Source: an uncultured Acidimicrobiaceae bacterium (GTDB lineage: Bacteria > Actinomycetota > Acidimicrobiia > Spongiisociales > ZC4RG35). Taken from it: DNA of 64,000 nt. The notes below the pieces were generated by a model that was given only the letters and a program-made list of their open reading frames with translations, searched no databases and had not been told where the DNA came from. Location: positions 141 through 64,140 of the forward strand of contig CAZNDH010000008.1 of the NCBI GenBank assembly GCA_964571765.1, written 5' to 3'. Shown here in pieces: positions 1-55,368 of the stretch (position 1 is the first letter of the stretch; each line of letters opens with the position of its first letter). A program made the translations under genes and the position numbers.

Positions 1-3000
1 TCTGGCCTCGACCTTCTCCACCACCTCGACCCGGGCGACCACCTTCCCGACTCCGCCGTTGGGTGAGTCGACGAAGTCGGCTGCCCGCTGCAGCACTTCG
101 ATGTCGCCCTCGGCGGCGGCGTCGGTCAGGTCGAGCTGGATGCCGGCCTCCACAGCGAGACCTTTGGGCGGTTCGGCTAGCTCACCGTCACGCACAGGCG
201 GGACCTGAGCCAGTTCGTCTCGCTCCAGGTACTCCACTCCGAGGGCCCGGAACACATAGTCGATGATCGAGTTGGCCATCTTGATGTTCTGATGCCCTTC
301 GACCATGCCCCGGGGCTCGAAGGTCTGGAAGGTGAAGGTGTCGACGTACTCGTCCAAGGGCACCCCGTACTGGAGTCCCTTCGACACCGCGATGGCGAAG
401 CAGGAGAGGATCCCTTTGAGGGTGGCGCCCTCCTTGGCCAGGTCGATGAATATCTCGCCGAGGGTCCCGTCGTCGTACTCGCCGGTGCGCAGGTACACCT
501 TGTGACCACCGACCCGGGCCTCCTGGTTGAAGCCGGAGCGTCGCGCCGGGAGGAGGAATCTGGGCGGCTGCAGACCCTGGGCATAGGCTTGAGTCGGAGA
601 GAGCCCCTTGGGCAGGTTGCCCCAATGGATCGCTTTCTCCGCCTCGACCGCAGCAGTCACCGCGGCTTCCTCGTCTTCGCTCTCCTCACCCTCGTCCGAG
701 GTGGAGTTGAGTGGTTGGGCCGCCTTGGAGCCGTCCCGGTAGATGGCCATCGCCTTCAAGCCCAGCTCCCAGGAGACCCGGTAGGCCTCCTCGATGTCCT
801 CCACCGTGATCTCGTTGGGCATGTTGATCGTGTTGTGATTCACGATTCCGTTACCCAGGAAGGCGTGGGTGTCGGGGACCGAAATGTCGAAGACCTCCTG
901 GTGTCCAGCGTCCGAGACCTCGATCACCGGACTGAAGTGGAGGTCATCAATGAGGACCTCCACCAGCCATTCGGGCAGCTCGACACCTGGCACCATGGCG
1001 ACCCGCTCCAGCGTGCGACGACTCACATGTACTGTCCTCGGGTCGTTGAGGAATGAGAAGCGGAGGCGTTCGCTGTGACCGCCCTGATCGAGTCGATCGA
1101 GCGGCATCATCCGATACAGCTCGGGTCCGGTTATCCCGGGGACGACATCGGCAGTCGATTGTGAGAAGTCCCTCTCGAAGAGCGTTTCGGCACGTGCTGC
1201 CTTGTCGGCCTCGACGAAACGAACGAGCCGCGCCAACCGTTGGGCCGCAGCACCGGCGGCGTACACCTCGTGGTATGTGCGTCCCGATACCTTGTTCGGC
1301 TTCGCACTACGACCATGGACCACGCCCAGGTTGGTCAGGACCGCCTGCAGATCGTCAGTCAAACCCTTCGAGGCGACGGTGATCCCCATCTTCGCCGAGC
1401 CTGACAGGGTGACGTACCCATCGAGGAACACACCCGACAGGAACTCGAGGATCATGTGCCGGGGCGAACGGAGGACCGCGTCGGGTATGCGCTTCTCCAG
1501 AGCGGTGTGACCCACCCCGAGATAATCGAGGAATTCCACGATGGTCTTCGAGGACACTTGCACACCTGGGCATCGGTCGCGGTGGCGTCGGATCGGTGCC
1601 TCGACACCGAACAACTGAGCCCAGCTCCGGGAAACGCGTTGGAGGACGCCCTCGTCGGAGTTGGTCACGGTGACGGTCCAGTTGGTTCTGGTCATGTGGC
1701 CCTCGGCAACGATGGCCCCCAACAGGAACGCCAACTCCGCGGTCATCTCTGCCGGAATGCTCACCTTCTTCTGCCCCCCGTATGACGCAGTGGGAGTGAA
1801 GTCATCGAAACGGGCTGGCAGCGCCGACCACATGTCGGCTCCATACCGCGTGGCCGCGTACTCGCCGGGCCGGATCTCCGACAGTGTCCGCCATTCGAGA
1901 CCACCGGGGACCGAGACCAGGAGTCGGTGGTTCGGAGTTCCTATGACCTCGTGGCCGGAACGCAGCTCGACCCTTCTGACCTGGCGCACTCCTCCGTAGT
2001 AGAAGGCGTCGGTCTTGCGACTGCCGTTGCGGGAGGCAACCTCCATGACGTGGTCACGGAACGAATCGGGAGCCTCGTCTCGATGCAGGGACCCAATGCG
2101 GACCAGGCCATCCTCTGTGGTGATCAGCGTTTCACCGATGACGCACTTCGAGATCGCCCCCGAGATGAAGGGTTGGGCGGCGGCCATCATCAGGATGTGC
2201 CCGTTGTGGTGGATGAACCGCTCCCCGTACTTCCCGTTGCGGTTGGCGGTGTCGAACACCGGGAGGTGCTCCTCCCTGACGTGAGGGGCGCCCTCGATGG
2301 TCTGGCGGCCGCAGATGTGATCGTTGGCCTCGCTGATCTGCGCCGAGGTGAACCCGAGCGCCTTGAGCAGGTTGAAGTCCCAGGAGGTGTACTCGTCGGC
2401 GGTGAACCCGATCCGCTGCAACGTCTCCTCGCCGAAGGTGAACACGTTGAAGGCGTGCTTCAACTCGAACACCGAAGGCAGGGTCTTGGCCAGCCTCTCC
2501 AGATCCTCGTCGACGAAGCCCTTGTCCAGGAGGGATTCCCGGTTGACATGAGGGGCGCCGTCGATCGAGCTGGTCCCGACGATGTACTCGACTATCTCGC
2601 CGATCTGGTCGGCGTCGTAGCCGAGGTGGCGCAAGGCCGGGGTCACCGACTGGTTGACGATCTTGAAGTAGCCGCCGCCGGCCAGCTTCTTGAACTTGAC
2701 CAGGGCGAAGTCCGGCTCCACTCCGGTGGTGTCACAGTCCATCAGAAGGCCGATGGTTCCCGTAGGCGCAATGACCGTCGCCTGGGCGTTGCGGTAACCG
2801 TTGGCCTCGCCCAACTCGATTGCCTGATCCCAGGATGATCGGGCGGCGTCGAGCAGGTCGTCGGGACAGAGGTCGGGGTTGATGCCCACCACCACATGGC
2901 TGACACCCTCGTAGGAAGGCTCGTCGTATGCGGCGCGGCGGTGGTTGCGGATCACCCGGAGCATCGACTCCCGGTTCTCCCCGAATCGGGGGAAGGGGCC

Positions 3001-4545
3001 GACCACACCCGCCATCTCCGCCGAGGTGGCATAGGCCAATCCGGTGAGGATCGAGGTGAGGGCACCGGCGATCGCCCGCCCCTCTTCGGAGTCGTAGGCG
3101 ATCCCCTGGCGCATCAAGAGCGAGCCGAGGTTGGCGTACCCCAGACCCAGGGTCCGGTAGTCGTAGGAGCCCTGGGCGATCTCCGGGGAGGGGAAGTGGG
3201 CCATCGCCACCGAGATCTCGAGGACGATCGTCCAGAGTCGGATGGCGTGTTGGTAGCCCTCGATGTCGAACACCCCGGTGGAGTCGTCGTAGAACCGGAC
3301 CAGGTTGATCGAGGCCAGGTTGCAGGCGGTATCGTCGAGGAAGAGATACTCGGAGCACGGGTTGCTCGCCCGGATCCGCCCGCCGGCCGGGCTGGTGTGC
3401 CACTCGTTGATGGTGGTGTCGAACTGGAGGCCGGGGTCGGCACAGGCCCATGCGGCGTCGGCGATCCGCTTCCACAGGTCACGTGCCTTGACCGTCTTGC
3501 GCACCGCACCATCGGTGCGGTTGGTCAGGTCCCAGTCGCCGTCGTCGAGCACCGTCTGGATGAAGTCGTTGCTCACCCTCACCGAGTTGTTCGAGTTCTG
3601 ACCGGAGACGGTGGCGTAGGCCTCCCCGTTGAAGTCGGCCGGATAGCCGCCGTGCTGGATGAGGACCCGTGCCTTCTCCTCCTCGACTTTCTTCCACTCG
3701 ATGAACTTCTCGATGTCGGGATGGTCGACGTCGAGAATCACCATCTTGGCGGCGCGACGGGTCGTGCCCCCCGACTTGATCGCGCCGGCGGCCCGGTCAC
3801 CGATCTTGAGGAACGACATCACCCCCGACGACTTGCCCCCACCGGAGAGACGCTCGTTCTCTGAACGGATCATCGAGAAGTTGGACCCGGCTCCGGAGCC
3901 GAACTTGAAGATCCTCGCCTCGCGGACCCAGAGGTCCATGATCCCACCCGGATTGACCAAATCGTCGCGCGCAGACAGGATGAAACATGCATGGGGGGCG
4001 GGGCGGCTGTAGGAGTCGGGGGAGGCGGTCAGCTCATCGCCGGCACCGTCGACATACCAGAAGCCCTGAGCGGGACCTTCCAGCCCGTATGCCCAGTTGA
4101 GCCCGGTGTTGAACCACTGGGGGGAGTTCGGTGCCGCCATCTGGGCAGCGAGCATGTACTTGAGCTCGTCTTCGAAGGCCTCGGCATCCTCGGGAGAGGC
4201 GAAGTAGCCCTCCTTCTCGCCCCAGTGGCGCCAGGTGCCGGCGAGGCGGTCGAACACTTGCTTGGCGGAGCGCTCCGGGCCGAGCACCGGCTCAGCGGCC
4301 TCGTCGAACAGCTGGATGCCCTCCTCGTCGAACTGGGGGACACCCGCCTTGCGGAAATACTTCGACACCATGATGTCCGAGGCCACCTGACTCCATTGGG
4401 CAGGGATCTCCGCTCCGGTCATCTCGAAGACCACCGAGCCGTCGGGGTTGCTGATCCGGGAGTCCCGATAGGTCCACTCGAAGGTGTGGTAGGGGTCCTT
4501 GCCGACCTCGGTGAAGCGTCGGGTGATCCGCAAGCCTTCGCTCAT
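1..4545 (-). CDS. nrdJ: Class II (adenosylcobalamin-dependent) ribonucleotide reductase, intein-containing; 3' end lies beyond window start
   Basis: Not in the ORF track because the frame runs off the left edge. ATG is at 4545-4543, preceded by GAGGAGG (reverse complement of 4552-4558). I hand-translated long stretches of the minus frame: 4545-4441, 3840-3781, and continuously 2160-481 and 60-1. I met no stop in any of them. Sequence read includes MSEGLRITRRFTEVGKDPYHTFEWTYRDSRISNPD..., GGKSSGVMSFLKIGDRAAGA, GAISK|intein|TINMPNEITVEDIEEAY, RSGFNQEARVGGHKVYLRTG. These are typical NrdJ motifs. The region between 3780 and 2160 was read less rigorously. Confidence 0.9.
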   Translation of the reverse strand, partial: MSEGLRITRRFTEVGKDPYHTFEWTYRDSRISNPDGSVVFEMTGAEIPAQWSQVASDIMVSKYFRKAGVPQFDEEGIQLFDEAAEPVLGPERSAKQVFDRLAGTWRHWGEKEGYFASPEDAEAFEDELKYMLAAQMAAPNSPQWFNTGLNWAYGLEGPAQGFWYVDGAGDELTASPDSYSRPAPHACFILSARDDLVNPGGIMDLWVREARIFKFGSGAGSNFSMIRSENERLSGGGKSSGVMSFLKIGDRAAGAIKSGGTTRRAAKMVILDVDHPDIEKFIEWKKVEEEKARVLIQHGGYPADFNGEAYATVSGQNSNNSVRVSNDFIQTVLDDGDWDLTNRTDGAVRKTVKARDLWKRIADAAWACADPGLQFDTTINEWHTSPAGGRIRASNPCSEYLFLDDTACNLASINLVRFYDDSTGVFDIEGYQHAIRLWTIVLEISVAMAHFPSPEIAQGSYDYRTLGLGYANLGSLLMRQGIAYDSEEGRAIAGALTSILTGLAYATSAEMAGVVGPFPRFGENRESMLRVIRNHRRAAYDEPSYEGVSHVVVGINPDLCPDDLLDAARSSWDQAIELGEANGYRNAQATVIAPTGTIGLLMDCDTTGVEPDFALVKFKKLAGGGYFKIVNQSVTPALRHLGYDADQIGEIVEYIVGTSSIDGAPHVNRESLLDKGFVDEDLERLAKTLPSVFELKHAFNVFTFGEETLQRIGFTADEYTSWDFNLLKALGFTSAQISEANDHICGRQTIEGAPHVREEHLPVFDTANRNGKYGERFIHHNGHILMMAAAQPFISGAISKCVIGETLITTEDGLVRIGSLHRDEAPDSFRDHVMEVASRNGSRKTDAFYYGGVRQVRRVELRSGHEVIGTPNHRLLVSVPGGLEWRTLSEIRPGEYAATRYGADMWSALPARFDDFTPTASYGGQKKVSIPAEMTAELAFLLGAIVAEGHMTRTNWTVTVTNSDEGVLQRVSRSWAQLFGVEAPIRRHRDRCPGVQVSSKTIVEFLDYLGVGHTALEKRIPDAVLRSPRHMILEFLSGVFLDGYVTLSGSAKMGITVASKGLTDDLQAVLTNLGVVHGRSAKPNKVSGRTYHEVYAAGAAAQRLARLVRFVEADKAARAETLFERDFSQSTADVVPGITGPELYRMMPLDRLDQGGHSERLRFSFLNDPRTVHVSRRTLERVAMVPGVELPEWLVEVLIDDLHFSPVIEVSDAGHQEVFDISVPDTHAFLGNGIVNHNTINMPNEITVEDIEEAYRVSWELGLKAMAIYRDGSKAAQPLNSTSDEGEESEDEEAAVTAAVEAEKAIHWGNLPKGLSPTQAYAQGLQPPRFLLPARRSGFNQEARVGGHKVYLRTGEYDDGTLGEIFIDLAKEGATLKGILSCFAIAVSKGLQYGVPLDEYVDTFTFQTFEPRGMVEGHQNIKMANSIIDYVFRALGVEYLERDELAQVPPVRDGELAEPPKGLAVEAGIQLDLTDAAAEGDIEVLQRAADFVDSPNGGVGKVVARVEVVEKVEAR
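832..2145 (-). mobile_element. Intein (438 aa) with LAGLIDADG homing-endonuclease domain, inserted in nrdJ between ...GAISK and TINMPNE...
   Basis: Cys1 codon TGC is at 2145-2143 (CVIGETLITTEDGLVRIG). Block B reads GTPNHRL. Two LAGLIDADG motifs are present: LAFLLGAIVAEGH and ILEFLSGVFLDGY. The C-terminus reads DTHAFLGNGIVNHN (Asn codon 834-832), followed by the +1 Thr (ACG 831-829). The element is in frame with both exteins. Confidence 0.85.
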
Positions 4546-11176: not shown

Positions 11177-12154
11177 CTATGAGGGCGGAGGCAGCAACAG
11201 CAGCTTGCCGGTCGTTGTGCGACTCTCCAGGCGGCGGTGGGCCTCGGCCGCATCCTCCAATGGGTAGCGCCCTCCGATCCTCACCGTGAGCCTCCCGTCG
11301 CCTGCCCAGCCGAACAACTCGTCGGCTCGTCTCATCAGCTCTTCAGGAGTGGCGGTGTAGTGGCCCAAGGAAGGCCTGGTGAGGAATAGTGAGCCCTTGC
11401 TTCCCAGGACAAGCGGCGATACCGGGGGGACCACACCCGAGGCGTTGCCGAAGGTGACCATGGTCCCCCGGGGTCGGAGCAGGTCGAGGCCCCCCTCGAA
11501 GGTGTCGGCGCCCACCCCGTCATAGACCACGTCGAGCGCTCTGGGGCCGTATGCCCCCGCGATGGCCTCGACAAAGTCGACCTCGCGGTACTCGATCACC
11601 ATGTCGGCACCCGCCTGGCGGCTCAGCTCGGCCTTTTCCGCAGAGCCGACGGTGGTGATCACGGTGGCCCCACGCAGCTTGGCGATCTGGGTGAGGAGCA
11701 GGCCAACCCCTCCGGCGCCGGCGTGGACCAGGCACTTGCTCCCCTCGACGAGCCGGTAGGTGTCGGTGGCCAGGTAGTGGGCGGTCATCCCCTGGAGGAG
11801 CAGGGCGGTGGCCACCTCGAGGTCAAGGGTACTGGGGAGGGGCACCAGCCGGTTGGCAGGCACTACATGTCGTTCCCGGTAGCTGCCCAGGGCGTTGACC
11901 CACCCAACCCGGTCCCCGGTGGCGATCCCCGCAACGCCCTCTCCCACTTCGAGGACCACCCCGGCACCCTCGACGCCGGGGGTGATCGGGAACTCGACGG
12001 GGTAGACCCCCTGCCGGTGGTAGACGTCGATGAAGTTGACCCCGGCAACAGCCACCTCCACCAGCACCGCACCCGGCACTGCCCGGGGACCTGGAACGTC
12101 CTCCAACACCAATTCCTCGGGGCCGCCCGGGCGATGCACCACCACGGTCTTCAT
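11177..12154 (-). CDS. qor: NADPH:quinone oxidoreductase (zinc-type alcohol dehydrogenase superfamily)
   Basis: MKTVVVHRPGGPEELVLEDVPGP..., the Rossmann motif VHAGAGGVGLLLTQIAK, and the C-terminal RLESRTTTGKLLLLP. The ATG at 12154 forms an ATGA overlap with the upstream stop. Confidence 0.85.
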   Translation of the reverse strand: MKTVVVHRPGGPEELVLEDVPGPRAVPGAVLVEVAVAGVNFIDVYHRQGVYPVEFPITPGVEGAGVVLEVGEGVAGIATGDRVGWVNALGSYRERHVVPANRLVPLPSTLDLEVATALLLQGMTAHYLATDTYRLVEGSKCLVHAGAGGVGLLLTQIAKLRGATVITTVGSAEKAELSRQAGADMVIEYREVDFVEAIAGAYGPRALDVVYDGVGADTFEGGLDLLRPRGTMVTFGNASGVVPPVSPLVLGSKGSLFLTRPSLGHYTATPEELMRRADELFGWAGDGRLTVRIGGRYPLEDAAEAHRRLESRTTTGKLLLLPPPS

Positions 12155-12624
12155 GGTCTCTCCACTCTCCATCCTCTCGTCCGTAACTCGTCGGCCAGGG
12201 TCTCATCGGCGAGGGGGGACAGGTCGATGCCGCTGCGTTCCACTCCGAGACGACGCTCCACCGTGTCGCGCAGGGTCCGGGCCCAGGCCCGTCCTCTCGC
12301 CTCCGCCTCGAGGCTGAGGGTGGCGTCGGGGTTGACGGTGTAAACCCGGGCGGTCACCTGGGGGCTGGCCCGTGATCCGCGCTCGCCGTAAACCAGGAGG
12401 ATCCCGCCGGCGGGCAGGTCCTGGATCCCTCCCACCTCGACAAAAGGACCCTCGTAGGCCCATCCGGAGCTCTTGGCGGTGTCCACCATCTCGACCACCT
12501 TGGCCCAGTTCTTGCGGCGCTCGTCGCCCACCAGGGGCACTTCGACCGGCACCAGGATCGTTTCGCCCATGGGTCGAGGGTAAGGGAATTGGAGCGCGAT
12601 CGGGGCATCGCCATATACCCTCAT
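12151..12624 (-). CDS. Hypothetical protein, translationally coupled to qor
   Basis: ORF track entry with high G/C at third codon positions. I recognise no family. The start is uncertain: 12624 lies only 3 nt from the divergent ATG at 12628, and 12570 is an alternative. Confidence 0.45.
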   Translation of the reverse strand: MRVYGDAPIALQFPYPRPMGETILVPVEVPLVGDERRKNWAKVVEMVDTAKSSGWAYEGPFVEVGGIQDLPAGGILLVYGERGSRASPQVTARVYTVNPDATLSLEAEARGRAWARTLRDTVERRLGVERSGIDLSPLADETLADELRTRGWRVERP

Positions 12625-12627
12625 CTC

Positions 12628-13623
12628 ATGGCCAAGGTTCGAATGTTCGCCAACCTGCGCGAGATCGCCGGCACCGGGCGCGCCGAGATCGATGCGGAGA
12701 CCGTCGCCGAGGTGATCATGGTGGCCTCAGAACGATACGGCGACGACTTCGCCCGCGGGGTCGAGGTCTCCCGGGTGTGGGTCAACGGTTTGGAGGCCGC
12801 ACCCGACTCAGCGGTGGGTGCCGACGACGAAGTGGTCCTCCTCCCCCCGGTGTCTGGTGGGAGCCAGCCGGCGGCGGTGCCCACGATAGACCTGCTCGCA
12901 TTCGTTCCTCTGGTGGCCGCGGTCGTGGCGGTGGCGGCCAGCCGCCAGGAGCAGGCCATCTGGGTAGCTGTCCTGGTCGCCCTGGTCGCCCTGTGGTCCG
13001 TCGACCTCAACTCGACCGTCACCGGGAGGGGCCGGCTCTTCGCCCCGCTCGCCGTGGTCACCTGCGGCGCCATTGGGGCCCTGTCGGCCCACGTGCTCGG
13101 GACCGGCGGATATGGCTTGGCCATGGCGGCCGCGGTGGTTGTGTGCCTTGGCTGGGCGGTCGCCTTCGAGGAGTACCGACAGGTAGAGGTGCTCACCTCA
13201 ACCGCCCTGGCCGGGCTCTTGGGAGCCTTGGCGGTGGCCTCCATGGTGCTCACCAACTCTGCCCATGCTCCCGACACCCGCGCCGTGGACATCTTCCTGG
13301 TGGCGGTGATCGCCGGGATCGCCCTCGGGGCCCTGGTCTCTCGGATTCCCGCCATCCCCTTCCTCGACCCCGTCACCACCACCGCCATGGTGGCGGTGTT
13401 GGGCACGGTCGTGGCCGCCTGGATCTGGGAGGCCGACGTCGTGGGATACCTCCTGGTCGGCTTGGGAGTGGCGGTGGCATTGGTCGGCGGGCGCGGCTTG
13501 TCCTCGATGATGCGTACCGGAGTGGTTCGGCTCACCGAGAGGACGCCTGGCCTGATCCCGTCACTCGATAGTGTGGTTCTTGCCGCGGCGATCTACTTCC
13601 CTCTGGTCGGGCTGATCCTCTGA
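12628..13623 (+). CDS. MoaD/ThiS-like beta-grasp domain (ending ...PPVSGG) fused to a polytopic membrane domain
   Basis: Residues 1-78 (MAKVRMFANLREIAGTGRAEIDAETVAEV...DDEVVLLPPVSGG) look like a complete MoaD-type sulfur carrier, including the diglycine (codons 12856-12861). The frame then continues for about 250 aa of hydrophobic helices. Confidence 0.65.
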   Translation: MAKVRMFANLREIAGTGRAEIDAETVAEVIMVASERYGDDFARGVEVSRVWVNGLEAAPDSAVGADDEVVLLPPVSGGSQPAAVPTIDLLAFVPLVAAVVAVAASRQEQAIWVAVLVALVALWSVDLNSTVTGRGRLFAPLAVVTCGAIGALSAHVLGTGGYGLAMAAAVVVCLGWAVAFEEYRQVEVLTSTALAGLLGALAVASMVLTNSAHAPDTRAVDIFLVAVIAGIALGALVSRIPAIPFLDPVTTTAMVAVLGTVVAAWIWEADVVGYLLVGLGVAVALVGGRGLSSMMRTGVVRLTERTPGLIPSLDSVVLAAAIYFPLVGLIL

Positions 13624-13675: not shown

Positions 13676-14764
13676 ATGACAGCCCCCAAGCCGCTCGCCC
13701 GCGCGCTTCTCGTCGTCGTTCTCATCGCTGCGGTGAGCGCTGTGCCCCTGCCCTCGGCGGCGGTCACCCGGGCCCAGGTCGATGCCGCCTGCGAGGACTC
13801 CCGGGAGCAGCTGGCCAACTACCGCCTTGCCCAGCAGCGCTTCGGGGAGGCGGCCAATGCCTACGACGCCGTCCTCAACGAGATCGACCTCCTCGAACGT
13901 CAGCAGGCCAGGATCCAGACCTCGGTGGGCAACACCGCCAACGAGTTGGACTCGGCGAAGAAGCGGTTCGAGGACCACGCCGTTGAGCTCTACATGCGAG
14001 GCGGCGTCTCCAGCCCGGGGATCATCCTCAGCGCCTCTTCGGTCGACCAGCTCCTCACCACCACCGAGTTCCTCTCCTCGGCGGCGGTTGGGGGGCAACG
14101 CTCCATCCACGACCTGATCGCCCAGATCGGCGAACTGGAGAGGTTCCAGGTCGATCTCGACGAGATCCACTCTCAGCTCATGGACAAAGAGGCCGAGGCC
14201 GCTGCCCTGGCCTTCGAGCTCAACTCGGCCATGGAGGCCGAGCAGGCCGCCTACTCCCGGCTGAGCACTCGCTGCAAGCAGCTCACTTCGAAGTACGAGG
14301 CGGAGCAGGCGGCGCTCCGGGCTGCCGCCCGCCAGCGTGCCGCCGGGTCGGTCCAGGTCGGGCCGTTCATCTGCCCGTTCACCAAGGGCCGCACCTCTTT
14401 CACCAACAGCTGGGGGGCGCCTCGCTCCGGGGGTCGGAGCCACAAGGGGACCGACCTTTTCGCCGCCTTGAACGAGCCGACGTACGCCGTCGCCGCCGGG
14501 GTGGTCTTGACTGGCAACAGTGGTCTGGGTGGTCGCACCATCTGGCTGATAGCCACCAACGGGGTGGCCTACTACTACGCCCACCTCGCCAACTGGAACG
14601 TGTCCAATGGCCAGCAGGTCAGCCAGGGACAGACCATCGGCTTCAACGGCGACTCGGGCAACGCTCGGGGGGGGGCCCCTCACCTCCACTTCGAGATCCA
14701 CCCTGGCGGCAGGGGCAGCCCGGCGGTCAACCCCTATCCCACGCTGGTCGCAGCCTGCCGGTAA
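13676..14764 (+). CDS. Secreted M23-family metallopeptidase with N-terminal coiled-coil region
   Basis: Signal peptide plus a long heptad-like region. The M23 motifs GRSHKGTDLFA and HLHFEIHPGG are present. Confidence 0.85.
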   Translation: MTAPKPLARALLVVVLIAAVSAVPLPSAAVTRAQVDAACEDSREQLANYRLAQQRFGEAANAYDAVLNEIDLLERQQARIQTSVGNTANELDSAKKRFEDHAVELYMRGGVSSPGIILSASSVDQLLTTTEFLSSAAVGGQRSIHDLIAQIGELERFQVDLDEIHSQLMDKEAEAAALAFELNSAMEAEQAAYSRLSTRCKQLTSKYEAEQAALRAAARQRAAGSVQVGPFICPFTKGRTSFTNSWGAPRSGGRSHKGTDLFAALNEPTYAVAAGVVLTGNSGLGGRTIWLIATNGVAYYYAHLANWNVSNGQQVSQGQTIGFNGDSGNARGGAPHLHFEIHPGGRGSPAVNPYPTLVAACR

Positions 14765-14774
14765 CCTTGGCCGC

Positions 14775-15308
14775 GTGACCGAACGGCGACGGCGGATCGA
14801 TATGGTGCTCGAGCCCGAGTACCTCGACGACATCAGCACCATCCACCTCGAAGAGTTGAAGAAGCGGCGGGACACCGCCGAGGACGTCGAGTCCCAGATC
14901 TCCTATTACCGGCGGCTCATCCATGGCCGGATGGACCTGCTCGCCTTCGAGATGAAGCGACGGCGTGGGGAAGAGGAGCGGACCCTCATCGAGGCTCTAC
15001 CCGAGATACTCTCCTCCGGCCTGGTGCTGGGCAGCGAGCCCAGCCTCAAGCATCTGGACACCATGCCCCCTCTCCCCTCGACCACGGGTCGGCGTCTCAT
15101 CGACCAGATCATGGACGACGGCGTCCTCACCCAGCTCCCCGACCTCGGGGACGACGAAGTGTCCGAAGCGATGGAGCGACTCGGCGAGGTGGAAGTGGTG
15201 CTTTCCAATCAGCGCCGGCAGCTCCACTCGGTGATCGACGCGGTGCAGAGGGAGATCGTTTCGCGGTATCGCAGCCAGCAGGACGACGGGGCCGCCGTCT
15301 CCGGGTAG
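14775..15308 (+). CDS. RsiG-like (c-di-GMP-binding anti-sigma factor family) protein
   Basis: Two helices each carry ExxxSxxRxxxHxxxD: EDVESQISYYRRLIHGRMD (14889-14936) and EVVLSNQRRQLHSVID (15192-15239). This matches the RsiG ExxxSxxRxxxQxxxD signature except for Q to H. The start is GTG 14775 or ATG 14802. Confidence 0.6.
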   Translation: MTERRRRIDMVLEPEYLDDISTIHLEELKKRRDTAEDVESQISYYRRLIHGRMDLLAFEMKRRRGEEERTLIEALPEILSSGLVLGSEPSLKHLDTMPPLPSTTGRRLIDQIMDDGVLTQLPDLGDDEVSEAMERLGEVEVVLSNQRRQLHSVIDAVQREIVSRYRSQQDDGAAVSG

Positions 15309-15338
15309 GGCACCACCCTTGCCTGTACACGGCTGAAC

Positions 15339-16280
15339 ATGCTGGCGAGGAGCCTCCGCTCGGGGCTGGTGGAGACCTACCACGACGGGGTGGTGGCGGT
15401 CTGCGACCCCGCGGGGCAGATAGTGGCTTCGTCGGGGGACACCGAGCGCCCCTTCTACCTGCGCTCGGCGGCCAAGCCGTTCCAGGCGCTGGTTTCCCAG
15501 GAGAAGGGGGCTGGGTTGAAGCCGGTCGAGCTGGCTCTGGCATCGGCGTCCCACCGCGGGAATCCGGCGCAGGTGGCCGTCGTCGAGGCGATGCTGGCCG
15601 CCGCAGGGCTCGACGAGGATGACCTCGGATGCCCTCCCGACTGGCCACTGGCGCACCCTGCCTCGAGGCGCCTGGTTGCCTCGGGCCATCGGCGCCCCCG
15701 GCGCACATGGCATAACTGCTCGGGCAAACACGCCGGGTTCCTTCGGGCATGTGCCGCCCGTGGCTGGCCCATCGACGGCTACCTCGACCCGGGACACCCG
15801 CTGCAGATGGCCGTCGTTTCCCTGGTATCCGAGTTGGGCGGCTACCGGGTCGACCCCGTGGGGGTCGACGGCTGTGGTGCCCCGGTCCTTCGTACCAACG
15901 CCGCCGCCATGGCCCGCCTCTTTGCCTCTCTGGCCTCTGATCCGGCGCTGGCCGAGGTGTATCGGGTGATGCACCGGTATCCCGCCCTGGTTTCGGGGGT
16001 AGACGAGGGTGATGCCGCCATCGCCACGGTGATCGATGCGGTAGCCAAGGGGGGCGCCCAAGGTTGTCTCGGGGTGGCCGTGGCCCCAAGTCTCGGGGTG
16101 GCGGTCAAGTCGTGGGACGGAGACCACGCCGTGGCGGTGATCGGAGCGGTTGCCGCCCTGGAACGCCTGGGGGTGCTGACACCCAACGCCTCTGCCCGGC
16201 TGGGAGGACACGCCCGCCCTTCGGTGCTCGGAGGGGGCGAGCCGGTCGGCGAGGTGGAGCCCGTGGTGGACTGGTCGTGA
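15339..16280 (+). CDS. Asparaginase-II family protein (Rhizobium-type)
   Basis: The motifs RSAAKPFQA, SASHRG and HNCSGKHAGFL are characteristic of the family. Confidence 0.8.
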   Translation: MLARSLRSGLVETYHDGVVAVCDPAGQIVASSGDTERPFYLRSAAKPFQALVSQEKGAGLKPVELALASASHRGNPAQVAVVEAMLAAAGLDEDDLGCPPDWPLAHPASRRLVASGHRRPRRTWHNCSGKHAGFLRACAARGWPIDGYLDPGHPLQMAVVSLVSELGGYRVDPVGVDGCGAPVLRTNAAAMARLFASLASDPALAEVYRVMHRYPALVSGVDEGDAAIATVIDAVAKGGAQGCLGVAVAPSLGVAVKSWDGDHAVAVIGAVAALERLGVLTPNASARLGGHARPSVLGGGEPVGEVEPVVDWS

Positions 16281-41678: not shown

Positions 41679-43565
41679 GTGACCTCCCTCCTCTGGCTGA
41701 TAATCGCTCTCCCGCTCGGCGGGGCACTGTTCCTCCACTTCGCCGGGAGGTTCCTCAGGGAGCCACTACCGGGGTGGCTGGCCACCGCGGCCATGTCGGG
41801 GTCCTTTCTGATTGCTTTGGCCGCCGCCATTCCCTTCTTCCGGGGCGACGGACCCACCGAGACCCTGCTCCTCTGGGAGTGGATGCCGGCGATCGGGGCC
41901 AATCTGGAGATCCAATGGGACCCGCTGTCGGCACTGATGACCCTGGTGGTCACCGGGGTGGGCTCGTTGATCCACCTGTTCTCCATCGGCTACATGCATG
42001 GCGACGATCGGTTCGGCCGGTTCTTCACCTACCTCAACCTCTTCGCTGCCTCGATGCTCACCCTGGTCCTCGCCGGCAACTTCGCCATGCTCTTCCTCGG
42101 CTGGGAGCTGGTGGGGCTGTGCTCCTACCTGCTCATCGGGTTCTGGTTCACCCGGCACTCGGCGGCCGGGGCCGCCAAGAAGGCGTTCGTGGTCAACCGG
42201 ATCGGCGACCTCGGCCTGATGGTGGGGCTGATGCTGGTGTTCGCCACATTCGGCACCCTGTCCTACACCGGGGTCCTCGACCGGGCCGATGAGCTGTCAA
42301 CCGCCACGGCGACCGCCATCGGCCTCCTCTTCCTCCTCGGGGCGGCGGGCAAGTCGGCGCAGATCCCCCTCTACGTGTGGCTTCCCGACGCCATGGAAGG
42401 CCCCACCCCGGTGTCGGCCCTGATCCACGCGGCCACCATGGTCACCGCCGGGGTCTACCTGGTGGCCCGCTCGGCGGCCATCTTCGACCTGTCCGAGGTG
42501 GCCCAGGTGACGGTGGCCACCGTGGGCGCCGTCACCGCCCTGTGGGCGGCATCGATCGCCCTGGCCCAGCGTGACATCAAGAAAGTCCTTGCCTACTCCA
42601 CGGTGTCTCAACTCGGGTTCATGTTCCTCGCGGTGGGTGCCACCGCCTATGTGGCCGGGATATTCCACCTGATGACACACGCCTTCTTCAAGGCGCTGCT
42701 CTTCCTCGGGGCCGGTGCGGTGATCCACGGCATGTCCGGGGAGCAGGACATGCGCCGCATGGGCGGGCTCTTCACGCGGATGCGGGTCACTGCGGTGACC
42801 ATGGCCATCGGCGTCCTCGCCATTTCGGGCATCCCCCCCCTGGCCGGGTTCTGGTCGAAGGACGAGATCGTCGCCAGCGCTTTCGCCCGCAGCGGGTGGT
42901 TCGGCGCCCTCATGGTGGTGGCCCTCTTGGCCGCGGTGCTGACAGCCTTCTACATGACCCGTCTCTGGGTGATGGTGTTTCTCGGTCAGCCCCGCTGGGA
43001 CGAGGCCGAGGTCCATCCCCATGAGGCGCCCCGGGTGATGACCCTCCCCCTGGTGGCCCTGGCCGGGCTCACCCTGGTCGGCGGTCTGATCAACACCCCG
43101 TTCCGCTACACCCTGGAGCACTTCCTCGAGCCGGCCTTCGAGGGTGTCGCCATGCAGCACCCTCCGGAGGGGTGGTTGATGTTCACCGTCCTCGCCGGGG
43201 TCTCGGTGCTCGCCGGGGTGGCCGGGATCGCCGCCGCCTTCTTGGCCTACCACCGTCCCGAGGAGCAGTGGCTCGACTTCGAGGACAGCCTCCAGCCGGT
43301 GTGGGGGGCCTGGGAGGGCGCCTATCGGGTCGACGATCTGTACGGGGCGGCCATCGTCGCCCCCGGCCGCAAGGCCGCCGGGTGGGCCGCCTTCTCGGTC
43401 GACGTCCCCGTGATCGACGGGCTGGTCAACGGGGTGGGCCGGGTGGTGCGTGGCGTCGGTGACACGGTGCGGCAGCTCCAGACCGGCCAGGTGCGGACCT
43501 ACGGCGCCCTGCTCCTCACCGGCGGCATCGCAGTGGTCCTTTGGCTGGTGGCGACAGGCTCATGA
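41679..43565 (+). CDS. nuoL: NADH-quinone oxidoreductase subunit L (operon 1)
   Basis: LGWELVGLCSYLLIGFW, GKSAQIPLYVWLPDAMEGPTPVSALIHAATMV and STVSQLGFM. Confidence 0.95.
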   Translation: MTSLLWLIIALPLGGALFLHFAGRFLREPLPGWLATAAMSGSFLIALAAAIPFFRGDGPTETLLLWEWMPAIGANLEIQWDPLSALMTLVVTGVGSLIHLFSIGYMHGDDRFGRFFTYLNLFAASMLTLVLAGNFAMLFLGWELVGLCSYLLIGFWFTRHSAAGAAKKAFVVNRIGDLGLMVGLMLVFATFGTLSYTGVLDRADELSTATATAIGLLFLLGAAGKSAQIPLYVWLPDAMEGPTPVSALIHAATMVTAGVYLVARSAAIFDLSEVAQVTVATVGAVTALWAASIALAQRDIKKVLAYSTVSQLGFMFLAVGATAYVAGIFHLMTHAFFKALLFLGAGAVIHGMSGEQDMRRMGGLFTRMRVTAVTMAIGVLAISGIPPLAGFWSKDEIVASAFARSGWFGALMVVALLAAVLTAFYMTRLWVMVFLGQPRWDEAEVHPHEAPRVMTLPLVALAGLTLVGGLINTPFRYTLEHFLEPAFEGVAMQHPPEGWLMFTVLAGVSVLAGVAGIAAAFLAYHRPEEQWLDFEDSLQPVWGAWEGAYRVDDLYGAAIVAPGRKAAGWAAFSVDVPVIDGLVNGVGRVVRGVGDTVRQLQTGQVRTYGALLLTGGIAVVLWLVATGS

Positions 43566-43701
43566 GATTGCTGAGCAACCTCATGGGTCGTACTCGGTAC
43601 CCCGTACCGGGGATCTCGACTCCCCTTCCCCTGCTGGCGGAGTGGGCGATACGGGTGCGCCGAGCGAGCCGGGTAGGGAGCGGAGCAGAGCGGAGCGACC
43701 G

Positions 43702-45234
43702 ATGCTGACCGCCCTCGTGCTATTGCCCTTGGCAGGTGCCGCCATAGTGGCGGTGGTTCCGGCCCGCCGGCGCGAGCTCCACGTTCCACTGGGGATCGCC
43801 TCGTCGATGGCCCCGCTCGCCCTGGCCGGCTATCTGTTCTGGGTGTTCGAGCCGATCGACCGGTTCCAGTTCGCGGTCGACGTCCCCTGGTACCGGCCCT
43901 GGGGAATCGGGTGGAGTCTCGGTGTCGACGGGATCTCGATGCCGCTGGTGGTGCTCACCGCCCTGCTCATCCCGATCGCCCTGGGCGCTTCGACGGCGAT
44001 AACCCACAAGACCCGCCAGTTCGTCGCCCTCACCCTCCTCCTCGAGGCCGGGATGATCGGCGCCTTCCTCGCCACCGACCTGTTCCTCTTCTTCGTGTTC
44101 TTCGAGGCGATCCTGATCCCCATGTACTTCATAATCGGGGTGTGGGGGAGCGAGCGCCGGGTGTACGCCGCGGTCAAGTTCTTCATCTACACCGCCCTGG
44201 GCTCGGCCCTGATGCTGGCGGGGATCATCGCCATGGCGGTCCTCCACTCGGCTCAGACCGGGGCGCCCTCCTTCGCCCTGGCCGACCTGATGGCCCTGGA
44301 ACTTTCGGCCGGCGCCGAGCGCTGGCTGTTCGCCGCGTTCGCCATCGCCTTCGCGGTCAAGGTACCCCTTTTCCCGTTGCACACCTGGCTGCCCGATGCC
44401 CATACCGAAGCGCCCACCGCCGGGTCGGTGCTCCTCGCCGGGGTCCTCCTCAAGCTGGGAACCTACGGGCTGATCCGGTTCAACCTGAGCTTCTTCCCCC
44501 AGGCCTCGGTGGACGCGGTGTGGGTGATGGGGGGCCTCGCAGTGGTGGGGATCGTCTACGGGGCGGTGGTGGCCATCGTCCAGCCCGACCTGAAGCGCCT
44601 GGTCGCCTATTCCTCGGTGAGCCACCTGGGGTTCATCGTCCTGGGCACCTTCGCCCTCACCTCCTCCTCGCTCCAGGGTGCGGTGATCCAGAACTTCAAC
44701 CACGGGCTGACCACCGGGGCGTTGTTTCTCCTGGTGGGGATGATCTACGAGCGACGCCACACCAAGCAGATCGCCGAGTTCGGCGGGTTGCAGAAGGTGA
44801 TGCCGGTGTTCGCCGGCTTCTTCCTCCTCATGGTCTTCGCCTCCATTGGCCTTCCCGGGCTCAACGGGTTCATTGGCGAGTTCCTGGTCCTGGTGGGCAG
44901 CTTCCCCACCCTTCCCGCACTGGCGGTGGTCGCTGCCCTCGGGGTGATCCTGGCCGCGGTATACCTGCTGTGGGCATACCAGCGTGTGTTCACCGGTCTC
45001 CCCGAGAGGGAGGAGAACCGTCTCCTCGTCGATCTCACTCCCCGCGAGATCTCCCTGCTCGCCCCGTTGGCGGTGTTGGTGGTGGTCCTCGGCCTCTTCC
45101 CCAACGTCCTCCTCGACAAGATCGCCCCTTCCACCGAGTCGACGCTCGACCGCATCGAGGCCGCCACTGACTATGTGGTGCCCTTCCCGGGGCGTCTCGG
45201 TGATGTGTTCCTCGCCGGGGATGGTGGAGGATGA
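43702..45234 (+). CDS. nuoM: NADH-quinone oxidoreductase subunit M (operon 1)
   Basis: ATG at 43702 (MLTALVLLPLAG...). FAVKVPLFPLHTWLPDAHTEAPTAGSVLLAGVLLK. The track ORF starts upstream, in the spacer. Confidence 0.9.
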   Translation: MLTALVLLPLAGAAIVAVVPARRRELHVPLGIASSMAPLALAGYLFWVFEPIDRFQFAVDVPWYRPWGIGWSLGVDGISMPLVVLTALLIPIALGASTAITHKTRQFVALTLLLEAGMIGAFLATDLFLFFVFFEAILIPMYFIIGVWGSERRVYAAVKFFIYTALGSALMLAGIIAMAVLHSAQTGAPSFALADLMALELSAGAERWLFAAFAIAFAVKVPLFPLHTWLPDAHTEAPTAGSVLLAGVLLKLGTYGLIRFNLSFFPQASVDAVWVMGGLAVVGIVYGAVVAIVQPDLKRLVAYSSVSHLGFIVLGTFALTSSSLQGAVIQNFNHGLTTGALFLLVGMIYERRHTKQIAEFGGLQKVMPVFAGFFLLMVFASIGLPGLNGFIGEFLVLVGSFPTLPALAVVAALGVILAAVYLLWAYQRVFTGLPEREENRLLVDLTPREISLLAPLAVLVVVLGLFPNVLLDKIAPSTESTLDRIEAATDYVVPFPGRLGDVFLAGDGGG

Positions 45235-47862: not shown

Positions 47863-48011
47863 CCCTCGAAGGCGTCGTGGAGGTAACCCAGGCTGACGTG
47901 GCCGCAGGTACCACACACGGTCCGCTGCAGGCCGTAGTTGTGGGTGGCAGTCACCTGCTCGTGCAGGCAGGCCTCGCCGCCACCTCGGTTACGGAAGCTC
48001 TTGGTCCACAT
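47808..48011 (-). CDS. Small Cys/His-containing protein (67 aa), possible zinc ribbon
   Basis: ATG at 48011 is preceded by AAGGAG. Third codon positions are G/C-rich. The CLH...CGTCGH pattern is present. Confidence 0.5.
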   Translation of the reverse strand: MWTKSFRNRGGGEACLHEQVTATHNYGLQRTVCGTCGHVSLGYLHDAFEGQEEADTADSSEGAATTS

Positions 48012-48159
48012 TTGCTCGTTTCTCCTTCGGAACGGCATTTCCCCTATTGATCGGCAGGTCGGGTCGGCATATCGCGAACCAATCCTGGATCGGGCGATCG
48101 GACTAGTCAGCAGGCCGGCCAGTTCCTCAGACCGGAGATTCGCTTATCGTCTTAGGCGG

Positions 48160-52650: not shown

Positions 52651-53016
52651 ATGAGCACGTACTTCGAGAGTTATGTGACCGTGGGTGCATTCGCCGCCCT
52701 CGGGGCGGTTCTCGTCCTCATCATGCTGGGCATTGCAACAGTGCTCCGCCCCAACAAGCCAAGTCAGGCAAAGCGGACCACATACGAGTGTGGGGTCGAT
52801 CCGGTGGGCACCGGGTGGAGCCAGACATATGTCCGCTACTACGTGTTCGGCCTGCTCTTCCTGGTGTTCGACGTCGAGGCGGTGTTCATCTTCCCCTGGG
52901 CGATCGCCGCCGAGGAGTTGGGGATGTTCGGCCTGGTGGCGATGATCCTGTTCATGCTGACCCTGGTCGAAGGTCTCGTCTATGCGGTCAAGAAAGGTGT
53001 GCTGAGGTGGGAGTAG
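52651..53016 (+). CDS. nuoA: NuoA-like subunit (operon 2)
   Basis: YECGV...[22 protein letters not shown]. Confidence 0.9.
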
Positions 53017-55268: not shown

Positions 55269-55285
55269 TTCGGTTTGTCGTGGTG

Positions 55286-55345
55286 CTTGGTACTTGGCGC
55301 TTGGTACTTGGACCTTCCCGGTACCCGGTACCCAGTACCCAGTAC
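55286..55345 (+). repeat. GTAC-core tandem repeats in the nuoD2-nuoH2 spacer
   Basis: 2 x CTTGGTACTTGG (55286-55297 and 55300-55311), then CGGTACC CGGTACC CAGTACC CAGTAC (55319-55345). The two arms are imperfectly complementary. Confidence 0.85.
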
Positions 55346-55368
55346 AGGGCGCGCAGAAAGGCCACGCA

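What the first reader, a model, noticed from the sequence alone, without database searches (positions are those of the whole stretch)
12628..13623. Complete MoaD/ThiS-type ubiquitin-like domain, with internal Gly-Gly, fused to a polytopic membrane domain
Residues 1-78 read like a free-standing sulfur-carrier protein ending in the canonical ...LLPPVSGG. In MoaD, ThiS and CysO this diglycine must be the free C-terminus to be adenylated and thiocarboxylated. Here the frame continues without a stop into about 250 aa of transmembrane helices. One possibility is a precursor that is cleaved after GG, as with ubiquitin-like precursors that need a JAMM-type or other protease. Another is a membrane-tethered beta-grasp domain with a non-sulfur-carrier role. 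The extreme C-terminus (PGLIPSLDSVVLAAAIYFPL) faintly recalls the CdsA/CTP-transferase C-terminal motif, but this is a weak impression only. The gene is divergent from the qor-hypothetical pair, with start codons only 3 nt apart if the track start is right. moaA lies 35 kb away, and no moaE or moeB is adjacent.
Basis: partly seen in the sequence, partly recalled or inferred. Interest (0 to 1): 0.7.

Follow-up and report, generated by a model that had tools for sequence, protein, structure and literature searches.

The report
MoaD-like domain fused to CdsA-like membrane protein
A real, conserved gene of uncultured Acidimicrobiia joins a complete MoaD-type ubiquitin-like sulfur-carrier domain, with its Gly-Gly end intact, to a nine-helix membrane domain that is a remote, active-site-altered relative of CDP-diglyceride synthase; the combination is undescribed and is probably cut into two proteins after the Gly-Gly.

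Summary
ORF 12628-13623(+) encodes 331 aa. Residues 4-78 match the whole ThiS/MoaD profile and end in PPVSGG exactly at the profile's end. Nine transmembrane helices follow in the same frame.

It is not a frameshift. Hundreds of homologues of about 331 aa share the architecture, all from uncultured Acidimicrobiia. The membrane domain occurs in only 96 clusters among 1.84 billion proteins, almost always behind a MoaD domain.

The MoaD part is much better conserved than the membrane part (55% against 30% identity). PPV[S/A]GG is present in 214 of 219 full-length members and is followed by a variable linker.

Two lineages have split the gene, one with MoaD ending exactly in GG-stop. At least three lineages, and possibly five, have lost MoaD.

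Profile-profile comparison shows that the last 155 or so residues are a remote homologue of the CdsA catalytic core (probability 87-91%, controls below 5%). Most CdsA catalytic residues are replaced, and Foldseek finds no fold match.

Best reading (about 0.5): a precursor cut after Gly78, as in MoaX. It would release a GG-ended carrier and a CdsA-like membrane protein that always sits next to a secreted M23 peptidase. Cleavage and biochemical function remain untested.

The parts
12628..13623 (+). Whole gene: 331-aa MoaD-like domain plus nine-helix membrane domain, including the stop codon
   Evidence: Homologues of about 331 aa.
12628..12861 (+). MoaD/ThiS-type beta-grasp domain (residues 1-78), predicted cytoplasmic
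   Evidence: PF02597 E 5.7e-8 over the full profile. Foldseek matches to SAMP1 and MoaD. The positive-inside count places it in the cytoplasm.
12844..12861 (+). PPVSGG tail (residues 73-78), the proposed cleavage site after G78
   Evidence: P73, P74, V75, G77 and G78 are invariant in 48 diverse full-length sequences. PPV[SA]GG is present in 214 of 219 members. pLDDT is below 50 for residues 76-81.
12862..12885 (+). Variable linker (residues 79-86); the residue after GG is small or polar
   Evidence: The residue after GG is S in 110 members, A in 60, T in 23, then Q, E, G or N, and never Pro. The linker varies in sequence and length.
12886..13620 (+). Nine-helix membrane domain (residues 87-331). 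Its conserved polar residues D126, R184, D247, R296 and D314 all lie on the predicted cytoplasmic face.
   Evidence: AlphaFold model of this domain alone: pLDDT 89, pTM 0.86. Conservation. Topology.
13144..13620 (+). CdsA-like core (residues about 173-331, helices 5-9), with a remodelled active site
   Evidence: hhalign probability 91.5% (E 8.7e-7) and 87.2% (E 3.9e-6). Controls. Residue mapping.
12571..12627 (.). 57-nt intergenic region between the divergent start codons
   Evidence: The conserved start of the neighbour is its Met19, at 12570.
12151..12570 (-). Divergent 139-aa protein of unknown function. It is a conserved neighbour in the closer relatives only.
   Evidence: No Pfam or PDB match.
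13676..14764 (+). Secreted coiled-coil M23 metallopeptidase. It is the downstream neighbour of the membrane gene in every fused, split or MoaD-less variant whose contig reaches that far.
   Evidence: PF01551 E 1e-21. Synteny. No terminator-like site in the 52-nt gap.
14802..15308 (+). RsiG-like protein, the next gene of the conserved block
   Evidence: PF22802 E 1.6e-22. Synteny.

Best explanation
The gene encodes one polypeptide with two modules. The first is a cytoplasmic MoaD-type beta-grasp that keeps its full PPVSGG tail. The second is a nine-helix membrane domain that is a distant relative of the CdsA (CTP-transferase) family with a remodelled catalytic site. A short, flexible, variable linker joins them. 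These points are shown by the analyses.

My inference is that the protein is a precursor. A cytoplasmic protease, most plausibly of the JAMM/MPN+ type encoded elsewhere in the genome, cuts after Gly78. The same happens in the MoaD-MoaE fusions MoaX (cut at GG|S) and Deinococcus DR2607. Cleavage would release an 8-kDa carrier with a free Gly-Gly end that an E1-like MoeB/MoeZ enzyme can adenylate and thiocarboxylate. It would also release a 26-kDa membrane protein. That protein probably binds or modifies a phosphorylated lipid or lipid-linked envelope precursor at the inner leaflet, next to the conserved secreted M23 peptidase.

It is open whether the two products work together or are merely co-expressed, as ubiquitin and ribosomal proteins are in ubiquitin-ribosomal-protein fusions.
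For: The architecture is real and ancestral. The MoaD domain averages 55% pairwise identity against 30% for the membrane domain, and it is the higher of the two in all 946 pairs. P73, P74, V75, G77, G78 and other MoaD signature residues (F7, A8, L10, R11, E12, W51, N53, D67, E68) are invariant or nearly so. PPV[SA]GG occurs in 214 of 219 members and is followed at once by a linker of variable sequence and length. Residues 76-81 are the only segment with pLDDT below 50. pTM falls from 0.86 for the membrane domain alone to 0.68 for the whole protein, so no fixed interface between the domains is predicted.

Two independent gene fissions exist. In L085 MoaD ends in PPVSGG-stop and a 200-nt spacer precedes the membrane gene. 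In L086 and L087 it ends in PPVSGGDR-stop. At least three lineages carry the membrane gene without MoaD, in the same genomic context and with its conserved residues kept. The membrane protein therefore works as a separate polypeptide.

There are precedents. MoaX must be cleaved between Gly82 and Ser83 (PMC4326299). DRJAMM cleaves the Deinococcus MoaD-MoaE fusion (PMC8832034). The carriers QbsE and CxnE have C-terminal extensions beyond GG, which JAMM proteases are thought or proposed to remove (PMC5925218).

CdsA homology of the membrane domain.
Against: There is no direct evidence of cleavage. No JAMM, E1-like, MoaE or other sulfur-acceptor gene was found within 10 kb of the gene in the 91 loci, or in the window (and the Pfam contexts). 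Ubiquitin-like domains permanently fused to polytopic membrane domains do exist, for example EccD. The fusion has been stable across a whole class-level clade, which suggests an advantage in keeping the parts together. The N-terminal domain scores below the cut-offs of the MoaD and SAMP1 equivalog models. The function of the membrane domain is unknown. Its CdsA relationship rests on profile-profile comparison alone and is not backed by Foldseek.
Confidence: 0.5

Rival explanations
1. The beta-grasp is tethered and never cleaved. The MoaD-like domain stays attached and acts as a cytoplasmic interaction or regulatory module of the CdsA-like membrane protein. This would resemble the YukD-like ubiquitin domain of EccD in type VII secretion. 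It would recruit a partner or gate the cytoplasmic cavity, with no sulfur-carrier chemistry.
For: There is precedent for a ubiquitin-like domain joined to a polytopic membrane domain in Actinobacteria (PMC1779556). Foldseek gives a weak whole-chain match to EccD3 (E 0.027). No protease or E1 gene lies nearby. The fusion is retained in most lineages. All conserved polar residues of the membrane domain face the cytoplasm, where the tail is anchored.
Against: Non-carrier beta-grasp domains such as YukD/EccD lack the diglycine (from my own knowledge of these families). Here PPVSGG is nearly invariant while the residues after it vary freely. The tail is modelled as disordered rather than docked. 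Repeated loss or detachment of the domain, with the membrane gene staying intact, is hard to reconcile with an integral regulatory domain. One split form ends exactly at GG.
Confidence: 0.33
2. The two parts form one pathway at the membrane. After cleavage, or in cis, the C-terminus of the MoaD-like protein is the substrate of the remodelled nucleotidyl-transferase-like domain. That domain would either activate the Gly carboxylate or join it to a lipid head group, in the manner of Atg8.
For: The GG tail is encoded directly in front of a domain descended from an enzyme that transfers a nucleotidyl group from CTP to a lipid phosphate at the cytoplasmic face. Adjacency is kept even after fission. 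The conserved residues D126, R184, D247, R296 and D314 cluster on the cytoplasmic side.
Against: Most CdsA catalytic residues are missing. These include one Asp of the metal-binding pair (D235 becomes R289), K188, K242, K248/D249, H257 and D262/R263. Lineages without MoaD keep the membrane gene. No such chemistry is known in bacteria.
Confidence: 0.07
3. The fusion is an artefact: two adjacent genes, moaD and a membrane gene, joined by a sequencing or assembly error at the GG codons.
For: Split versions of the locus do exist in nature.
Against: The identical ORF is found in three independent assemblies. More than 400 homologues of 326-380 aa carry the continuous frame. 214 of 219 full-length members read straight through PPV[SA]GG.
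Confidence: 0.01

Closest known systems
MoaX of Mycobacterium tuberculosis and DR2607 of Deinococcus (MoaD-MoaE fusions that must be cleaved after GG)
   Same: A complete MoaD domain has an internal Gly-Gly that is followed by a small residue (GG|S) and then a second domain in the same frame. In MoaX, cleavage between Gly82 and Ser83 is required (PMC4326299). In Deinococcus a JAMM protease makes the cut (PMC8832034).
   Different: Here the downstream partner is a nine-helix membrane domain, not soluble MoaE. No Moco gene is adjacent. Cleavage has not been shown.
EccD (YukD-like ubiquitin domain plus a polytopic membrane domain, type VII secretion)
   Same: It is an actinobacterial protein with an N-terminal cytoplasmic beta-grasp followed by many transmembrane helices (PMC1779556). 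Foldseek gives a weak whole-chain match.
   Different: The YukD-type domain has no diglycine and is not of the MoaD family. EccD is described with 12 helices (PMC1779556), not nine. Its setting is an ESX gene cluster. The membrane domains are unrelated: the model of the membrane domain alone gives no EccD match.
CdsA / CTP_transf_1 (PF01148) phosphatidate cytidylyltransferase superfamily
   Same: Helices 5-9 align in order with the CdsA catalytic core (probability 87-91%). The loop and helix layout matches, and P186, G234, S239, R243, G259, D265 and S/G266 (E. coli numbering) are kept. The domain is of similar size (253 aa) and has nine helices, as T. maritima CdsA does (the last point from my own knowledge).
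   Different: It scores below the Pfam threshold (at most 14.6 bits against 24). About two thirds of the residues invariant in CdsA are replaced, including D165, K188, D235 (now Arg), K242, K248/D249, H257 and D262/R263. Foldseek finds no match to 4Q2E or 4Q2G.
Sulfur carriers with C-terminal extensions: QbsE (GG-CF) and CxnE (GG plus 10 residues)
   Same: They are MoaD-family carriers made as precursors whose diglycine has to be exposed; QbsD and CxnF (JAMM proteases) are thought or proposed to do this (PMC5925218). The split homologue in L086 ends in GG-DR.
   Different: Those extensions are 2-10 residues long, not a 253-residue membrane protein, and their protease is encoded in the same cluster.
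Eukaryotic ubiquitin-ribosomal protein fusions (UBA52, RPS27A)
   Same: A ubiquitin-fold module ending in GG is fused in frame to an unrelated protein and removed after translation, and the arrangement is stable over long evolutionary times (from my own knowledge).
   Different: These are eukaryotic, involve ubiquitin itself and have soluble partners.

Membership tests
ThiS/MoaD family (PF02597) | Profile HMM match above the curated threshold over the full domain | tested here: met
   E 5.7e-8, 33.6 bits against a cut-off of 22.5, residues 4-78 on profile positions 1-76 of 76. All 44 members scanned that carry the domain match, out of 50 scanned.
ThiS/MoaD family (PF02597) | Beta-grasp fold | tested here: met
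   In the AlphaFold model pLDDT is 76-87 over most of the domain and falls in the tail. Foldseek's top matches are SAMP1, E. coli MoaD and M. tuberculosis MoaD2 (TM-score 0.65-0.81 on the target).
ThiS/MoaD family (PF02597) | Gly-Gly at the free C-terminus, available for adenylation and thiocarboxylation | tested here: inconclusive
   The GG is present and nearly invariant, but it is internal in the primary product. It is free in the split homologue of L085. Cleavage cannot be tested here.
MoaD proper (molybdopterin synthase small subunit, TIGR01682 equivalog) | Score above the equivalog cut-off, and a MoaE/MoeB partner or Moco gene context | tested here: not met
   36.5 bits against a cut-off of 66.15. 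The moaD_arch model gives 41.9 against 49.5. No moaE, moeB or moaC within 10 kb in the 91 loci. The whole-genome gene content could not be tested.
MoaX-type cleavable MoaD fusion | MoaD domain, GG followed by a small residue, and a second domain in the same frame | tested here: met
   The sequence reads PPVSGG|SQP. The residue after GG is S, A or T in 193 of 214 members.
MoaX-type cleavable MoaD fusion | The downstream domain is MoaE | tested here: not met
   The downstream domain is a nine-helix membrane domain with no MoaE match.
MoaX-type cleavable MoaD fusion | Post-translational cleavage after GG | not testable with these tools
   This needs protein-level data.
CdsA / CTP_transf_1 (PF01148) | Profile HMM match above the gathering threshold | tested here: not met
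   The query itself gives no hit. Family consensus sequences give 12.3-14.6 bits against a cut-off of 24 (E 0.029-0.15), although this is the only or the top family. 3 of 50 members give weak hits.
CdsA / CTP_transf_1 (PF01148) | Remote homology by profile-profile comparison | tested here: met
   hhalign probability 91.5%, E 8.7e-7, 155 columns. Replicate: 87.2%, E 3.9e-6, 157 columns. Profiles reversed on one side score 17-19 and 20 block-shuffled profiles score 12-24, against 50 for the real comparison. A narrow, enterobacteria-only CdsA profile failed.
CdsA / CTP_transf_1 (PF01148) | Catalytic signature: D165, S-P-x-K-T, G-D235, S-x-x-K-R, K-D249, P-G-H-G-G, D262-R-x-D265 | tested here: not met
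   Only P186, G234, S239, R243, G259, D265 and S/G266 have equivalents. D235 becomes R289. D165, K188, K242, K248/D249, H257 and D262/R263 are lost.
CdsA / CTP_transf_1 (PF01148) | Structural similarity to the solved CdsA (4Q2E, 4Q2G) | tested here: not met
EccD / YukD-type ubiquitin-membrane fusion | YukD-like domain, 11-12 helices, ESX (type VII) gene context | tested here: not met
   The domain is of MoaD type with GG. There are nine helices. The neighbours are M23, RsiG and asparaginase II, with no ESX genes.

The most novel reading that the evidence does not exclude
The locus encodes a self-contained, membrane-bound ubiquitin-like system. The GG-ended MoaD-like protein would be activated by, or conjugated to a lipid or lipid-linked envelope precursor by, the remodelled CdsA-like domain. 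This would be a bacterial analogue of Atg8 lipidation, or an activating enzyme unrelated to E1, working with the neighbouring M23 peptidase, FemAB-like and GT4 envelope genes.
Probability: 0.06. Interest if true: 0.9.

Novelty: new variant of a known kind. Interest (0 to 1): 0.6.

Why it matters
MoaD-family proteins are the prokaryotic ancestors of ubiquitin, and their chemistry needs a free Gly-Gly end. In this family of uncultured Acidimicrobiia that end is encoded in front of a membrane protein. It has been kept almost unchanged while the membrane part diverged to about 30% identity. If the protein is cleaved, this extends the precursor principle of MoaX and of ubiquitin fusions to a membrane protein, and it predicts a processing protease that is not yet identified. 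If it is not cleaved, the invariant diglycine needs a new explanation. Either way, the membrane domain defines an unannotated, catalytically remodelled branch of the CdsA superfamily that is tied to cell-envelope genes. Current annotation ('MoaD/ThiS family protein', 'molybdopterin converting factor small subunit') describes only a quarter of the protein and would mislead metabolic reconstructions.

Tried and rejected
1. Frameshift or assembly artefact: rejected.

2. Sequence search of solved structures with the membrane-domain profile: nothing.

3. Foldseek against the PDB with the whole model and with the membrane-domain model. Only MoaD/SAMP matches and a weak EccD3 match driven by overall architecture were found. 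The membrane domain gave nothing (best E 0.72).

4. hhalign against a narrow, enterobacteria-only CdsA profile gave probability below 1%, and I nearly dropped the CdsA lead. It became significant only with a diverse CdsA profile and a deeper family profile, and I checked it with reversed and block-shuffled controls.

5. Search for JAMM motifs, other GG-stop MoaD genes, and MoaE, MoeB or MoaC in the window and the 91 loci (1.5 Mb): none apart from the split variants. E. coli baits limit the sensitivity of this search.

6. Intramembrane protease ideas (rhomboid, site-2 protease, presenilin or prepilin-peptidase type, CPBP, exosortase) were considered from the conserved residues. I dropped them because no signature motif is present, no Cys or His is conserved across the whole family, and no HMM hit appeared.

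7. Self-cleavage by an N-O or N-S acyl shift: unlikely, because the residue after GG is often Ala.

8. Cleavage of the GG by the neighbouring M23 Gly-Gly endopeptidase: unlikely, because M23 carries a signal-peptide-like N-terminus while the MoaD domain is predicted to be cytoplasmic.

9. Internal translation start for the membrane domain: no start codon is conserved in the linker.

10. The divergent 139-aa neighbour has no Pfam or PDB match.

11. Literature search for a MoaD plus CdsA or membrane fusion found nothing.
Full report
**Observation.** The ORF 12628-13623(+) is intact and encodes 331 aa. Residues 4-78 match the whole Pfam ThiS/MoaD model (positions 1-76 of 76, E 5.7e-8, 33.6 bits against a cut-off of 22.5). 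They also match the NCBIfam MoaD, archaeal MoaD and SAMP1 models, but below their equivalog cut-offs. The match ends on G77-G78 of ...LLPPVSGG (codons 12856-12861), and the frame continues without a stop. AlphaFold models a beta-grasp followed by nine long helices (pLDDT 82.5). Foldseek's best matches for the N-terminal domain are SAMP1, E. coli MoaD and M. tuberculosis MoaD2 (30-33% identity, TM-score 0.65-0.81 on the target).

**Not an artefact, and a restricted family.** The identical protein is on three independent contigs. A word-indexed search returned 404 homologues. The best 120 are all 326-380 aa, cover 98-100% of the query and carry PF02597. An exhaustive HMMER search of 1.84 billion cluster representatives with a profile of the membrane domain alone found only 96 clusters at E of 0.001 or better. 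Apart from fragments, almost all are about 330 aa, with the membrane domain starting near residue 80-100. Wherever a source gives a name, the organisms are uncultured Acidimicrobiia or Actinomycetota. A few metagenome-assembled genomes with identical synteny are titled Acidobacteriota. No cultured organism appeared.

**Conservation pattern.** Across 50 diverse members the MoaD domain averages 55% pairwise identity and the membrane domain 30%. MoaD is the higher of the two in all 946 pairs. P73, P74, V75, G77 and G78 are invariant. F7, A8, L10, R11, E12, G38, F41, W51, N53, G54, D67 and E68, the residues typical of MoaD, are conserved in at least 92% of sequences. PPV[S/A]GG occurs in 214 of 219 full-length members. 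Of the other five, three are fragmentary or frameshifted and two read TPVSGG. The next residue is S (110), A (60), T (23), Q, E, G or N. After it the linker varies in sequence and length. In the model, residues 76-81 are the only stretch with pLDDT below 50. pTM falls from 0.86 for the membrane domain alone to 0.68 for the whole chain. Nothing therefore suggests a fixed interface between the two domains.

**Topology.** Lys plus Arg average 6.2 per sequence in the even-numbered loops and 2.3 in the odd-numbered loops. This fits an N-terminus-inside topology, with the MoaD domain in the cytoplasm. The few conserved polar residues of the membrane domain are D126, R184, D247, R296 and D314, together with G161, G288 and G308. 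All lie on the predicted cytoplasmic side.

**What the membrane domain is.**
- Direct Pfam, NCBIfam and PDB sequence searches gave nothing significant.
- Foldseek with a confident model of the domain alone (pLDDT 89) found no PDB match (best E 0.72, TM-score at most 0.26).
- There were recurrent weak hints towards the CdsA superfamily. CTP_transf_1 was hit weakly by 3 of 50 members, and one member hit archaeal CarS at E 0.02. For family consensus sequences CTP_transf_1 was the only or the top Pfam hit (E 0.029-0.15, 12-15 bits, below the cut-off of 24).
- hhalign against a narrow enterobacterial CdsA profile was not significant.
- With a diverse CdsA profile of 58 sequences and a deep family profile, hhalign gave probability 91.5%, E 8.7e-7 and score 50 over 155 columns in the same order. 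The built-in tool reproduced this with probability 87.2% and E 3.9e-6.
- Controls were clean. Reversing one profile gave scores of 17-19. Twenty block-shuffled CdsA profiles gave 12-24, with probability at most 4.6%.
- The alignment places helices 5-9 on E. coli CdsA residues 102-282 or so, with matching loops. 'FLDP..T' falls on 'VSPGKT', 'GRGLSSM.R' on 'GDLTESMFKR' and 'G....LD[GS]' on 'GG..DRIDS'.
- Of the roughly 20 residues invariant in CdsA, only P186, G234, S239, R243, G259, D265 and S/G266 have equivalents.
- D235 and D265 correspond to the metal-binding pair D219/D249 of T. maritima CdsA. That assignment is my own knowledge of the 4Q2E/4Q2G work, mapped through. D235 has become R289, and only D265 survives, as D314.
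- I conclude that the domain is a probable remote member of the CdsA superfamily with a remodelled active site, not a canonical cytidylyltransferase. The disagreement with Foldseek is unresolved.

**Natural variants.**
- In L085 a 78-aa MoaD gene ends in ...PPVSGG-stop. A 200-nt spacer and a separate 264-aa membrane gene follow.
- In L086 and L087 MoaD ends in ...PPVSGGDR-stop, and the membrane gene starts 4 nt later. This form is seen on ten contigs.
- In L091 and in the contig that carries P0181 the membrane gene has no MoaD at all. The upstream genes are unrelated, and the conserved residues of the membrane domain are kept.
- In L026 a deletion has removed MoaD and left the remnant 'VTGRSQP'.
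- On a neighbour-joining tree of the membrane domain these variants are scattered among fused relatives. Fusion is therefore ancestral. There have been at least two independent fissions. MoaD has been lost at least three times, and possibly five. The two extra cases, P0172 and P0177, sit on contigs too short to check.

**Genomic context.** In every locus whose contig extends far enough, the membrane gene is followed on the same strand by a coiled-coil M23 peptidase. This holds for the fused, split and MoaD-less forms. The M23 protein has a signal-peptide-like N-terminus and intact HxxxD and HxH motifs (read directly from the sequence). An RsiG-like gene and asparaginase II follow it. In most of the annotated loci a FemAB-like acetyltransferase and a GT4 glycosyltransferase come next, and several also have YbjN. 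A crcB or methyltransferase gene on the opposite strand is sometimes inserted between the membrane gene and M23. The upstream side varies. In the window the gap to the M23 gene is 52 nt, with no terminator-like site. No MoaE, MoeB or MoaC gene, and no further free MoaD gene beyond the split variants, was found in 1.5 Mb of held DNA, and the window holds no JAMM motif on a credible ORF. moaA lies alone at 47938-49164.

**Mechanism.** The analyses show a cytoplasmic MoaD-type domain with an intact, strongly constrained diglycine tail. A flexible variable linker follows it, and then a CdsA-derived nine-helix domain with a cytoplasm-facing conserved site. The two modules are evolutionarily separable.

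I infer, with about 0.5 probability, that the protein is a precursor cut after Gly78. The constraint on PPVSGG makes sense only if the tail is used as a MoaD tail. That use needs a free carboxylate, according to the established chemistry of MoaD, ThiS and CysO. The split and MoaD-less forms show that the membrane protein works as a separate polypeptide.

Actinobacteria and Deinococcus already provide MoaD fusions that must be cleaved at GG|S. For MoaX the protease is unidentified. For DR2607 it is a JAMM enzyme (PMC4326299, PMC8832034). QbsE and CxnE are carrier precursors with short extensions after GG (PMC5925218).

Whether the released carrier serves Moco synthesis or a function linked to the membrane protein cannot be decided without whole genomes. 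The main rival, at about 0.33, is a permanently tethered domain of the EccD kind. A speculative third reading, at about 0.06, is that the GG end is itself a substrate of the CdsA-like domain.

**Comparison and novelty.** The closest known systems are described in detail in the Closest known systems section. They are MoaX-type fusions (same GG|S junction, different partner), EccD (same kind of architecture, unrelated domains, no GG), CdsA (remote homology, catalytic signature not met) and ubiquitin-ribosomal protein fusions (analogy only). I found no description of a MoaD domain joined to a CdsA-like or other membrane domain. Databases name the protein only after its first 78 residues. I rate it a new variant of a known kind, with moderate to high interest.

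Noticed in passing
window 13676-16280 and beyond; L003, L086, L088-L090: The gene block M23 peptidase, RsiG-like, asparaginase II, then a FemAB-like acetyltransferase (PF13480), a GT4 glycosyltransferase and YbjN keeps its order across very divergent Acidimicrobiia. In the window itself YbjN directly follows asparaginase II. The block looks envelope-related, and it is the invariant partner of the membrane gene.
   Followed up: partly
window 12151-12570 (-): This 139-aa protein has a strongly conserved 'GDERHKNWAKVVESVD...SGWAFEG' motif and no Pfam or PDB match. It is the divergent neighbour of the fusion gene in the closer relatives only. Its ORF extends 18 codons upstream of the conserved Met, which gave the false impression that the start codons are 3 nt apart.
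   Followed up: partly
L026 9761-10762: A deletion has removed the MoaD domain. It leaves 'VTGRSQP' in place of 'VSGGSQP' in front of an intact membrane domain, so the loss looks recent.
   Followed up: yes
L003 10993-11355, L089 11104-11475, L088 11021-12172: A crcB fluoride-channel gene, or a methyltransferase gene with a small ORF, lies on the opposite strand between the fusion gene and the M23 gene in some lineages. The two genes are therefore syntenic but not always co-transcribed.
   Followed up: no
window 12850-12880: The Gly-Gly codons and the bases that follow (GGTGGGAGCC) resemble a Shine-Dalgarno sequence. In the split variant L086 the equivalent GGGGGAGACAGG lies just upstream of the membrane gene's start codon. 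No in-frame start codon is conserved in the linker of the fused forms.
   Followed up: partly
window 41679-46685 and 52651-56373: Two separate sets of respiratory complex I-type genes are present. ORFs ending in a Proton_antipo_M (NuoN-like) gene at 45231-46685 are followed, some 6 kb later, by nuoA, nuoC and nuoD-like genes from 52651. Between them lie a bactofilin-like gene, moaA on its own, a DUF402 gene, an AbiEi/DUF559 gene and a phosphodiesterase.
   Followed up: no
window 1-4545 (-): A very long ORF (more than 1,500 codons, high third-position GC) runs off the start of the window. It was not examined.
   Followed up: no
L024, L030, L033, L039, L040 and others: Several metagenome-assembled genomes whose titles say 'uncultured Acidobacteriota bacterium' carry the gene with the same synteny as the Acidimicrobiia records. 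The record titles are probably mislabelled.
   Followed up: no
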